This document shows, piece by piece, positions 60,253 to 64,000 of a stretch of DNA of 64,000 bases; within the stretch, counting starts at the first letter, position 1, and every line of letters starts with the position of its first letter. The position numbers were made by a program. Source of the DNA: Escherichia coli O127:H6 str. E2348/69. Lineage in GTDB: Bacteria > Pseudomonadota > Gammaproteobacteria > Enterobacterales > Enterobacteriaceae. The stretch is from assembly GCF_000026545.1 (NCBI RefSeq), contig NC_011601.1. One strand, 5' to 3'.

Positions 60253-63200
60253 TTATAGATGTTTGAATGGGCGATGCCCCGTTGCTTGTTGACACTTTAT
60301 TCACAATCCTGCCACAGAGATAGCGCAATAAATCGAAGCCTATGTTCGAATTTATTGAACAACGCATAGAAAGCCGCGATGTGGTACTCTATATCTATCA
60401 TTTAAAAGAAAATTAATCAGGCAGACTACTGCCCACTAACGTTATGACAGAACAACAAAAATTGACCTTTACTGCCTTGCAGCAGCGGCTGGATTCGCTG
60501 ATGCTGCGTGACAGACTGCGTTTTTCTCGCCGTCTGCACGGCGTGAAGAAGGTTAAAAATCCTGATGCACAACAGGCCATTTTCCAGGAGATGGCGAAAG
60601 AGATTGACCATGCGGCAGGGAAAGTCCTGCTGCGTGAAGCGGAACGACCGGAAATTACTTACCCGGACAATTTGCCGGTTAGTCAGAAAAAGCAGGACAT
60701 ACTCGAAGCGATTCGTGACCACCAGGTGGTGATCGTCGCCGGGGAAACGGGTTCCGGTAAAACGACTCAGCTACCGAAAATCTGTATGGAGCTGGGTCGC
60801 GGGATTAAAGGGCTGATCGGCCATACCCAGCCGCGTCGGCTGGCGGCGCGAACGGTGGCGAACCGTATTGCGGAAGAGCTAAAAACGGAGCCGGGCGGTT
60901 GCATCGGTTACAAAGTGCGTTTCAGCGATCACGTCAGTGATAACACGATGGTCAAGCTGATGACCGACGGTATCCTGCTGGCAGAGATCCAGCAAGACCG
61001 CCTGCTGATGCAGTACGACACCATCATTATTGACGAAGCGCACGAACGCAGCCTGAATATCGATTTTCTCCTCGGCTATTTGAAAGAGTTGCTGCCGCGG
61101 CGTCCTGACCTAAAAATCATTATCACTTCCGCGACTATCGACCCGGAACGCTTTTCGCGCCACTTTAATAATGCGCCGATTATCGAAGTCTCCGGTCGGA
61201 CCTATCCGGTGGAAGTGCGCTATCGCCCGATTGTTGAAGAAGCCGATGATACCGAGCGCGATCAGTTGCAGGCGATTTTTGACGCCGTAGATGAACTGAG
61301 CCAGGAAAGCCCTGGCGACATTCTGATCTTTATGAGCGGCGAGCGAGAAATTCGCGATACCGCCGATGCGCTGAACAAGCTGAACTTACGCCATACCGAA
61401 ATCTTGCCGCTTTATGCGCGGCTTTCCAACAGCGAACAGAACCGCGTGTTCCAGTCGCACAGCGGGCGACGCATTGTACTGGCGACCAACGTCGCGGAAA
61501 CCTCGCTGACCGTACCGGGTATTAAATACGTTATCGACCCAGGTACAGCGCGTATCAGCCGCTACAGCTATCGCACCAAAGTGCAGCGTTTGCCGATTGA
61601 GCCAATTTCGCAGGCTTCAGCTAATCAGCGTAAAGGCCGCTGCGGTCGTGTGTCAGAAGGGATCTGTATTCGTCTCTATTCCGAAGACGATTTCCTCTCG
61701 CGCCCGGAGTTTACCGACCCAGAAATTCTACGTACTAACCTGGCCTCGGTTATTTTGCAGATGACCGCACTGGGCTTGGGCGATATCGCCGCATTCCCGT
61801 TTGTCGAAGCACCGGATAAACGCAATATCCAGGATGGCGTGCGTCTGCTCGAAGAACTGGGTGCGATCACCACGGATGAACAGGCCAGCGCCTATAAACT
61901 GACGCCGCTTGGTCGCCAGCTCTCGCAGTTGCCTGTCGACCCACGTCTGGCGCGTATGGTGCTGGAAGCGCAAAAACATGGCTGCGTGCGTGAGGCGATG
62001 ATTATCACGTCTGCGCTCTCCATTCAGGATCCGCGTGAGCGTCCGATGGATAAACAGCAGGCATCTGACGAAAAACATCGTCGCTTCCACGACAAAGAGT
62101 CTGACTTCCTCGCGTTTGTGAATCTGTGGAATTATCTTGGCGAGCAGCAAAAGGCGCTTTCTTCAAACGCCTTCCGTCGCCTGTGTCGTACTGATTATCT
62201 CAACTATCTGCGCGTGCGCGAATGGCAGGATATCTACACCCAGTTGCGCCAGGTGGTGAAAGAACTTGGCATTCCGGTTAACAGCGAACCGGCGGATTAT
62301 CGCGAAATTCACATTGCGTTGCTGACCGGTTTGCTTTCGCATATTGGTATGAAAGATGCCGATAAACAAGAATATACCGGCGCACGTAACGCGCGTTTCT
62401 CCATCTTCCCCGGTTCTGGTTTATTCAAAAAGCCGCCGAAATGGGTAATGGTGGCGGAACTGGTAGAAACCAGCCGCCTGTGGGGACGCATTGCTGCGCG
62501 GATCGACCCGGAATGGGTGGAGCCAGTTGCTCAGCATTTGATTAAACGCACCTACAGCGAACCGCACTGGGAACGGGCGCAGGGCGCGGTGATGGCAACG
62601 GAAAAAGTCACTGTTTATGGTTTGCCGATTGTTGCCGCGCGCAAGGTCAACTACAGCCAGATCGATCCGGCGTTATGTCGTGAACTCTTTATTCGCCACG
62701 CGCTGGTGGAAGGTGACTGGCAGACGCGTCACGCATTCTTCCGTGAAAACCTGAAACTACGGGCGGAAGTAGAAGAGCTGGAACACAAATCACGTCGCCG
62801 CGATATTCTGGTTGATGACGAAATGCTGTTTGAGTTCTACGACCAGCGCATCAGCCACGATGTGATTTCCGCACGTCACTTCGACAGCTGGTGGAAAAAA
62901 GTCAGCCGCGAAACGCCTGATTTGCTCAACTTTGAAAAGAGCATGTTGATCAAAGAAGGGGCGGAAAAAATCAGCAAGCTGGATTATCCGAACTTCTGGC
63001 ATCAGGGCAATCTCAAGCTGCGTTTGAGTTATCAGTTTGAGCCGGGGGCAGATGCTGACGGAGTGACCGTACATATTCCGCTGCCGCTGCTTAACCAGGT
63101 TGAGGAGAGTGGGTTTGAGTGGCAGATCCCCGGTCTGCGTCGTGAGCTGATCATCGCCCTGATTAAATCGCTGCCGAAGCCGGTACGCCGTAATTTTGTG

Positions 63201-64000
63201 CCCGCGCCAAACTACGCCGAAGCGTTTTTAGGCCGCGTCACACCGCTGGAATTGCCGTTGCTCGACAGCCTTGAACGAGAGTTACGGCGGATGACTGGCG
63301 TCACCGTTGACCGCGAAGACTGGCACTGGGATCAGGTGCCCGATCACCTGAAAATCACTTTCCGCGTGGTGGATGACAAAAACAAGAAGCTAAAAGAAGG
63401 GCGCTCATTACAGGATCTGAAAGACGCCCTGAAAGGCAAAGTGCAGGAAACGCTGTCTGCCGTGGCGGATGACGGTATCGAGCAGAGCGGTTTACATATC
63501 TGGAGTTTTGGTCAACTTCCGGAAAGCTACGAGCAGAAGCGCGGCAACTACAAAGTGAAGGCGTGGCCGGCGCTGGTGGATGAGCGTGACAGCGTAGCGA
63601 TCAAACTGTTTGATAACCCGCTGGAACAGAAGCAGGCAATGTGGAACGGTCTTCGCCGTTTACTGCTGCTAAATATTCCATCGCCGATCAAGTACTTGCA
63701 CGAAAAGCTGCCAAACAAAGCCAAGCTGGGGCTGTACTTTAACCCGTATGGCAAAGTGCTGGAGCTGATCGATGACTGTATCTCCTGCGGTGTGGATCAA
63801 CTGATCGATGCCAATGGTGGCCCGGTCTGGACGGAAGAAGGCTTTGCTGCGCTGCATGAAAAAGTCCGCGCTGAACTGAACGACACGGTGGTGGATATTG
63901 CGAAGCAGGTCGAGCAAATCCTCACTGCGGTGTTCAATATCAACAAACGTCTGAAAGGGCGGGTGGATATGACCATGGCGCTGGGGCTTTCTGACATTAA

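What the first reader, a model, noticed from the sequence alone, without database searches (positions are those of the whole stretch)
60444..64000. hrpA missing from the ORF track because it runs off the window edge
A continuous plus-strand frame from ATG 60444 to the window end encodes the N-terminal part of a DEAH-box helicase, while the track lists only short minus-strand ORFs antisense to it. The same edge effect applies to the pspA fragment at 1-23.
Basis: seen in the sequence. Interest (0 to 1): 0.2.

Follow-up and report, generated by a model that had tools for sequence, protein, structure and literature searches.

The report
Known E. coli hrpA, cut by window edge

Summary
Observation confirmed: from ATG 60444 the + frame is open for 1185 codons to the window end. 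The ORF lister, which omits ORFs that run off an end, shows only short minus-strand ORFs there at its default cut-off. The window is 100% identical to E. coli O127:H6 E2348/69, and the RefSeq hrpA start maps exactly to 60444. The full gene is 3903 nt (1300 aa), so the window lacks only the last 115 residues and the stop. The product passes both NCBIfam HrpA equivalog cut-offs and has the DEAD/Helicase_C/HA2/OB/DUF3418 architecture. All seven helicase motifs searched for are intact. It is 1290/1300 identical to K-12 HrpA, for which crystal and cryo-EM structures exist. Published work shows HrpA is a 3'->5' DEAH/RHA RNA helicase that splits collided ribosomes. The window edge removes almost exactly the C-terminal Hook bundle needed for that activity, but this is a window artefact: the genome copy is intact. 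The secondary claim fails. pspA ends 22 nt before window base 1, so 1-32 is the pspA-pspB spacer, and the TAA at 21-23 overlaps the pspB ribosome-binding site. Already known; very low interest.

The parts
60444..64000 (+). hrpA coding sequence, codons 1-1185 of 1300 (plus 2 nt of codon 1186). The gene would end at window-equivalent position 64346, 346 nt beyond the window.
   Evidence: Open frame. RefSeq CDS L001 3245-7147 maps to window 60444 onward, and the in-window translation is identical to the N-terminus of the 1300-aa product. NCBIfam HrpA equivalogs score 2412 and 2135 bits.
60678..61736 (+). Helicase motor: RecA1 (res 79-254) and RecA2 (res 255-431). It carries motif I GETGSGKT (res 100-107, nt 60741-60764), Ia TQPRR (128), Ib TDGIL (174), II DEAH (res 197-200, nt 61032-61043), III SAT (229), V TNVAETS (348) and VI QRKGRCGR (395).
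   Evidence: Motif search. Pfam DEAD and Helicase_C. Domain limits come from PMC11419001 and transfer directly because the alignment to K-12 HrpA has no gaps.
61737..62663 (+). DEAH/RHA accessory domains: winged helix (432-497), ratchet-like helical bundle HB1 (499-630), OB fold (631-687) and beta-meander (688-740).
   Evidence: Pfam HA2_N, HA2_C and OB_NTP_bind. Domain limits from PMC11419001.
62664..64000 (+). [quoted passage not shown]
   Evidence: Pfam DUF3418, E=3e-191, matching profile positions 2-464 of 582, so it is truncated at the window end. Domain limits from PMC11419001.
60244..60443 (.). azoR-hrpA divergent intergenic region. It presumably holds both promoters and the hrpA leader. 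There is no Shine-Dalgarno-like motif in the 15 nt before the ATG.
   Evidence: Sequence. Annotation shows azoR on the minus strand at 59638-60243 and hrpA on the plus strand. The promoter scan found no consensus sigma-70 site. The region is identical to K-12.
1..32 (+). 3' part of the pspA-pspB intergenic spacer, not a pspA fragment. It contains the 3' arm (4-10, CGCCGCC) of a hairpin whose 5' arm lies outside the window, and the pspB ribosome-binding site (TAAGGAG, 21-27).
   Evidence: pspA CDS ends at L002 979, window base 1 is L002 1001, and pspB starts at L002 1033 = window 33.

Best explanation
Window 60444-64000 is the first 91% of the chromosomal gene hrpA of E. coli O127:H6 strain E2348/69. 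It encodes the ATP-dependent 3'->5' DEAH/RHA-type RNA helicase HrpA. The gene is intact in the genome (1300 aa). It is absent from the ORF track only because its stop codon lies 346 nt beyond the window end. According to published work on the 99%-identical K-12 protein, HrpA rescues collided ribosomes in three steps. First, its C-terminal region (DUF3418, ending in the Hook domain) bridges the 30S heads of the stalled and the collided ribosome. [quoted passage not shown] Third, ATP-driven pulling on that mRNA splits the stalled ribosome into subunits, which gives tolerance to ribosome-targeting antibiotics. What is shown here is the identity of the gene, its start, its intact motifs, its domain architecture and its synteny. 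The mechanism is inferred from the literature by near-identity.
For: The frame is open for 1185 codons. The DNA is 100% identical to E2348/69, where the stretch is annotated hrpA and the CDS start maps to window 60444. The region is present in 5416 of 5426 complete E. coli genomes. NCBIfam equivalogs NF008348 (2412 bits, cut-off 1400) and TIGR01967 (2135 bits, cut-off 722.75) are passed even by the truncated product. The Pfam architecture is DEAD, Helicase_C, HA2_N, HA2_C, OB_NTP_bind and DUF3418. Motifs I, Ia, Ib, II (DEAH), III, V and VI are intact, including K106 and D197. The protein is 1290/1300 identical to K-12 b1413 with no gaps. It matches PDB HrpA entries 9ggr, 9gft, 6zww, 7akp, 8po6 and 6zwx end to end. 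The azoR-hrpA-ydcF-aldA gene order is the same in E2348/69, K-12 and ATCC 25922. Of 160 nucleotide differences from K-12 in the window part, 142 fall at codon position 3 of this frame and only 8 change an amino acid, which is the signature of purifying selection on this frame. The mechanism comes from PMC11419001 and PMC8325345.
Against: Nothing found argues against it. The last 115 residues and the stop codon are not in the window, so completeness rests on the identical source genome. No consensus sigma-70 promoter or Shine-Dalgarno motif was found upstream, so the start rests on annotation, on the upstream in-frame stop and on agreement with the proteins used for solved structures. It does not rest on a recognisable initiation signal.
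Confidence: 0.98

Rival explanations
1. The frame is a truncated or decaying hrpA pseudogene rather than a functional gene.
For: The window copy ends at residue 1185, close to the HrpA(1-1179) truncation that cannot split ribosomes.
Against: The truncation is the window boundary, not a feature of the DNA. The identical genome record continues to a 1300-aa product. There is no in-frame stop or gap relative to K-12. Substitutions are concentrated at third codon positions. All seven motifs searched for are intact.
Confidence: 0.01
2. The frame encodes a different DEAH/RHA helicase, such as the paralogue HrpB or a horizontally acquired helicase like the O-island 172 one, rather than HrpA.
For: HrpB models also hit the first ~550 residues (381 and 359 bits).
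Against: The HrpB scores are below their cut-offs (546 and 1053) and cover only the shared helicase core. The HrpA-specific DUF3418 region is present. The synteny is that of K-12 hrpA.
Confidence: 0.005
3. One or more of the nine minus-strand ORFs (60-140 aa) listed antisense to hrpA is a real overlapping gene.
For: They are listed by the ORF tool. The longest is 140 aa (61728-62150, TTG start).
Against: None of the four longest reaches a Pfam threshold; the best is 13 bits against a cut-off of 34.7. None is annotated in RefSeq for E2348/69, K-12 or ATCC 25922. One antisense frame has a stop-codon deficit (20 stops against 40-67 in the other four non-coding frames), as expected for the shadow of a long gene. 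The substitution pattern follows the hrpA frame.
Confidence: 0.01

Closest known systems
E. coli K-12 HrpA (b1413; PDB 6zww, 6zwx, 7akp, 8po6, 9gft, 9ggr)
   Same: Same gene: 1290/1300 identical, same length, same start, same neighbours (azoR upstream and divergent, ydcF and aldA downstream), same motifs and domains.
   Different: There are ten conservative or surface-type substitutions. Eight are in the window: Q56H, A67E, H290P, E618D, T794M, V903I, K933T and K1119Q. Two lie beyond it: V1225I and I1264V. None falls in a helicase motif. The window lacks residues 1186-1300.
Eukaryotic DEAH/RHA helicases Prp22/DHX8, Prp43/DHX15, Prp16, DHX36
   Same: They share the RecA1-RecA2-WH-ratchet-OB core, matching residues ~74-700 with E about 1e-127 to 1e-76.
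   Different: They lack the DUF3418 C-terminal region that gives HrpA its collided-ribosome specificity, and they act in splicing, ribosome biogenesis or G4 unwinding (established knowledge).
E. coli HrpB
   Same: A bacterial DExH/RHA paralogue with the same helicase core.
   Different: It is ~810 aa, has different C-terminal accessory domains and has no DUF3418. Its models score below cut-off here.

Membership tests
HrpA (ATP-dependent RNA helicase HrpA, NCBIfam NF008348 / TIGR01967 equivalogs) | Whole-protein score above the curated equivalog cut-off | tested here: met
   NF008348 scores 2412 bits against a cut-off of 1400, and TIGR01967 scores 2135.1 against 722.75. The match covers profile positions 2-1175 of 1287, ending at the window edge.
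HrpA (ATP-dependent RNA helicase HrpA, NCBIfam NF008348 / TIGR01967 equivalogs) | DEAH/RHA helicase core with conserved motifs I, Ia, Ib, II (DEAH), III, V and VI | tested here: met
   GETGSGKT at 100, TQPRR at 128, TDGIL at 174, DEAH at 197, SAT at 229, TNVAETS at 348 and QRKGRCGR at 395. Pfam DEAD and Helicase_C also match.
HrpA (ATP-dependent RNA helicase HrpA, NCBIfam NF008348 / TIGR01967 equivalogs) | HA2 winged-helix and ratchet domains plus OB fold after the motor | tested here: met
   PF04408, PF21010 and PF07717 all score above their gathering thresholds.
HrpA (ATP-dependent RNA helicase HrpA, NCBIfam NF008348 / TIGR01967 equivalogs) | HrpA-specific C-terminal region (DUF3418), including the Hook helical bundle | tested here: met
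   PF11898 scores 637 bits over residues 713-1175, profile positions 2-464 of 582. The missing end (residues 1186-1300) is present and intact in the identical source genome.
HrpA (ATP-dependent RNA helicase HrpA, NCBIfam NF008348 / TIGR01967 equivalogs) | Orthologous chromosomal position (azoR | hrpA | ydcF | aldA) | tested here: met
   The gene order is the same in E2348/69, K-12 MG1655 and ATCC 25922.
HrpA (ATP-dependent RNA helicase HrpA, NCBIfam NF008348 / TIGR01967 equivalogs) | ATP-dependent 3'->5' RNA unwinding and splitting of collided ribosomes | not testable with these tools
   Shown for the 99%-identical K-12 protein in PMC8325345 and PMC11419001. It is inferred here by near-identity.
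HrpB | Score above the HrpB equivalog cut-off | tested here: not met
   TIGR01970 scores 381 bits against a cut-off of 546, and NF008662 scores 359 against 1053. Both cover the helicase core only.
   The pspA CDS ends at L002 979, and window base 1 is L002 1001. PspA ends …KQDNQ*, whereas window frame 3 reads APPLIV*.

The most novel reading that the evidence does not exclude
The most novel reading not excluded concerns hrpA expression. The gene has no recognisable Shine-Dalgarno sequence or consensus promoter. A small hairpin lies 10 nt upstream of the ATG, and the spacer is better conserved across E. coli than a coding control segment of the same length. Together these could reflect a dedicated, undescribed control of the collided-ribosome rescue factor, for example translation coupled to ribosome stress. 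My data favour the dull alternative, because the hairpin is not significant and the perfect identity to K-12 looks like a recombination patch.
Probability: 0.04. Interest if true: 0.3.

Novelty: already known. Interest (0 to 1): 0.03.

Why it matters
It matters only as bookkeeping. A mechanical ORF track silently drops genes that cross a window edge, and the antisense shadow ORFs listed in their place are not genes. Here the dropped gene is the 3.9-kb hrpA, a well-characterised ribosome-rescue helicase with solved structures, so nothing new about biology follows. The useful correction is that the analogous claim at the left edge is false: no pspA sequence is in the window.

Tried and rejected
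1. Antisense ORFs as genes. The four longest have no Pfam match above threshold, none is annotated, and the substitution pattern follows the hrpA frame. Rejected.

2. Hidden RNA element in 59400-64000. Rfam in permissive mode gave only one chance-level hit, to a eukaryotic lncRNA model (18 bits against a gathering score of 80, E=0.48). Rejected.

3. Promoter or terminator calls in 60100-60600. There was no sigma-70 consensus site. There was one terminator-like hairpin on the minus strand (60435-60418), which is no more than the shuffles give. Uninformative.

4. Leader hairpin GGCAG-ACUA-CUGCC before the start. It folds at -7.4 kcal/mol with z = -1.39, and 16 of 200 shuffles fold as well. Not significant.

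5. Exceptional constraint on the azoR-hrpA spacer. It has 0 differences in 200 nt against K-12, while the flanking genes differ by ~4.5% (P about 1e-4). However, the identical run is 348 nt and extends into both coding sequences. A second 322-nt identical run lies wholly inside hrpA. The closer B2 relative ATCC 25922 differs at 3 positions in the spacer. This is best read as recombination mosaicism. The spacer is still somewhat better conserved across the population than a coding control: at least 99% identity in 4442/5413 genomes against 1024/5412.

6. ISEc13-mediated deletion of ynbABCD. Rejected. The IS is flanked by an intact 10-bp direct repeat, and the reconstructed empty site (pdxI directly next to azoR) occurs in 789 genomes.

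7. Technical: loci L002 and L004 were not exported to the Python sandbox. The pspA check was therefore done with translate and get_sequence instead.

Full report
**Observation.** Translating window 60444-64000 on the + strand gives 1185 sense codons and two extra bases with no stop. An in-frame TAA at 60414-60416 lies just upstream, so ATG 60444 is the first available start codon. At the window's base composition, a single frame stays open for 1185 codons with probability about 2e-26. The other five frames of the same stretch contain 20-67 stops. The ORF lister does not report this frame, and its documentation says ORFs that run off either end are omitted. At the default 60-aa cut-off, everything it lists inside 60444-64000 is on the minus strand: nine ORFs of 60-140 aa. 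At 40 aa, four short off-frame plus-strand ORFs also appear. The observation, and the edge-effect explanation for the missing ORF, are therefore correct.

**Identity.** Window 60200-64000 is 100% identical to the three assemblies of E. coli O127:H6 strain E2348/69, and 95-99% identical to nearly all of the other 5,400-odd complete E. coli genomes; at least 80% of the stretch is present in 5416 of 5426. Window 1-1500 matches the same strain. In RefSeq record NZ_LT827011.1 the stretch is annotated hrpA, ATP-dependent RNA helicase HrpA. Its CDS at locus L001 3245-7147 begins exactly at window 60444 and is 3903 nt long. The in-window translation equals the first 1185 of the 1300 residues of that product, which is 91%. 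The gene would end 346 nt past the window.

**Family membership.** The truncated product still passes both NCBIfam HrpA equivalogs: NF008348 at 2412 bits (cut-off 1400) and TIGR01967 at 2135 bits (cut-off 723). The HrpB models stay below their cut-offs. Pfam gives the full DEAH/RHA architecture of DEAD, Helicase_C, HA2_N, HA2_C and OB_NTP_bind, followed by the HrpA-specific DUF3418. The DUF3418 match stops at profile position 464 of 582 because of the window edge. Motifs I (GETGSGKT, residue 100), Ia, Ib, II (DEAH, 197), III (SAT), V and VI (QRKGRCGR, 395) are all intact.

The protein is 1290/1300 identical to K-12 HrpA without gaps. It also matches the PDB entries for E. coli HrpA end to end: 9ggr and 9gft (full length), and 6zww, 6zwx, 7akp and 8po6 (truncated constructs). 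The neighbourhood, with azoR divergent upstream and ydcF and aldA downstream, is the same in E2348/69, K-12 and ATCC 25922. Against K-12, 142 of the 160 nucleotide differences in the window part fall at third codon positions of this frame, and only 8 change an amino acid. That confirms this frame is the one under selection.

**Mechanism (from the literature, transferred by 99% identity).** HrpA is an ATP-dependent RNA helicase that modulates antibiotic susceptibility (PMC8325345). Campbell et al. (PMC11419001) show that it rescues collided ribosomes:
- The helicase core sits on the 30S beak of the stalled ribosome and takes in the mRNA emerging from the entry channel.
- The C-terminal region (alpha+beta-1, alpha+beta-2 and the Hook domain, residues 1078-1300) bridges to 16S helix h39 of the collided ribosome.
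- ATP binding and hydrolysis (K106, D197) and a downstream mRNA handle are required to split the stalled ribosome.

A construct lacking the last 121 residues, HrpA(1-1179), cannot split ribosomes. The window ends at residue 1185, almost the same place, so the in-window fragment taken alone would look like an inactive protein. This is purely a window artefact, because the genome copy is intact.

**The secondary claim is wrong.** In the source record the pspA CDS occupies L002 311-979 and ends …AAT CAA TAA (protein …KQDNQ*). Window base 1 corresponds to L002 1001, and pspB starts at L002 1033, which is window 33. The pspA stop therefore lies 22 nt outside the window, and window 1-32 is the 3' part of the 53-nt pspA-pspB spacer. 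The frame-3 reading APPLIV* that ends at TAA 21-23 is not PspA. That TAA overlaps the TAAGGAG ribosome-binding site of pspB.

**Rivals.**
- A pseudogene reading is excluded by the intact source gene and by the substitution pattern.
- A different helicase (HrpB or other) is excluded by the equivalog scores and the DUF3418 region.
- The antisense ORFs have no family support and no annotation in three genomes. They sit where a long gene is expected to cast shadow ORFs: one antisense frame has only 20 stops.
- Rfam finds nothing credible on either strand.

**Side observations.** An ISEc13 copy (58062-59611) lies between pdxI and azoR. It has Tn5-like ends and a 10-bp target duplication, and it sits in the loop of a palindromic hairpin. 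K-12 has ydbD-ynbABCD at this place, and ATCC 25922 has ynbABCD. I first suspected an IS-mediated deletion. However, the intact duplication, and the presence of the reconstructed empty site (pdxI directly next to azoR) in 789 genomes, show that the short arrangement is a common polymorphism into which the IS later inserted. The occupied site occurs only in the three E2348/69 assemblies.

The azoR-hrpA spacer is identical to K-12 although the flanking genes differ by ~4.5%. The identical run (348 nt) spills into both genes, a second 322-nt run lies within hrpA, and a closer relative differs in the spacer. This looks like recombination mosaicism. The spacer is nevertheless more conserved population-wide than a coding control of equal length.

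**Verdict.** The finding is real, correctly interpreted in its main point, and entirely ordinary: a known, structurally and functionally characterised housekeeping gene clipped by the window boundary. The remark about pspA should be dropped.

Noticed in passing
window 58062-59611 (transposase ORF 58073-59446, minus strand); direct repeats 58052-58061 and 59612-59621: A 1550-bp ISEc13 (IS4 family) with Tn5-like ends (CTGTCTCTTGATCAGATCT / CTGTCTCTTATACACAAAT) is inserted between pdxI and azoR. It lies in the loop of the palindrome CCTCCCAC-TTTC-GTGGGAGG and is flanked by the 10-bp duplication CACTTTCGTG. The occupied site is found only in the three E2348/69 assemblies, which carry 27-30 matching places each, nearly all further ISEc13 copies.
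   Followed up: yes
window 58038-59637 compared with L003 3083-10255 (K-12) and L004 4507-9438 (ATCC 25922): ydbD-ynbABCD (K-12) or ynbABCD (ATCC 25922) is absent between pdxI and azoR in this strain. The reconstructed IS-free junction, with pdxI directly next to azoR, occurs contiguously in 789 of 5426 complete E. coli genomes. The absence is therefore a common polymorphism and was not caused by the IS.
   Followed up: yes
window 60125-60472 and 62502-62823: Two long runs of perfect identity to K-12 (348 and 322 nt) sit in a region that otherwise differs by 4.3%. The first covers the whole azoR-hrpA spacer plus the starts of both genes. In none of 20,000 uniform re-placements of the 188 differences was the longest identical run as long as 348 nt (the 322-nt run was not tested on its own). 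The B2 relative ATCC 25922 differs in the spacer. This is probably recombination mosaicism.
   Followed up: partly
window 60420-60443: hrpA has no Shine-Dalgarno-like sequence in the 15 nt before its ATG. A 5-bp hairpin (GGCAG-ACUA-CUGCC, 60420-60433) lies 10 nt upstream, but its stability is not significant (z = -1.39).
   Followed up: partly
window 1-10 together with the 12 nt preceding the window (L002 989-1010): The window starts inside the loop of a GC-rich hairpin (GGCGGCG-TCCGAACG-CGCCGCC) in the pspA-pspB spacer. It has no following T-run, so it could be an intra-operon RNA stabiliser or attenuator (read from the sequence; not folded or tested).
   Followed up: no
search results for window 60200-64000 and 1-1500: A handful of matches to these core chromosomal regions (5-6 places) are on records labelled as plasmids in the E. 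coli collection. These are likely mislabelled replicons or large chromosomal captures.
   Followed up: no
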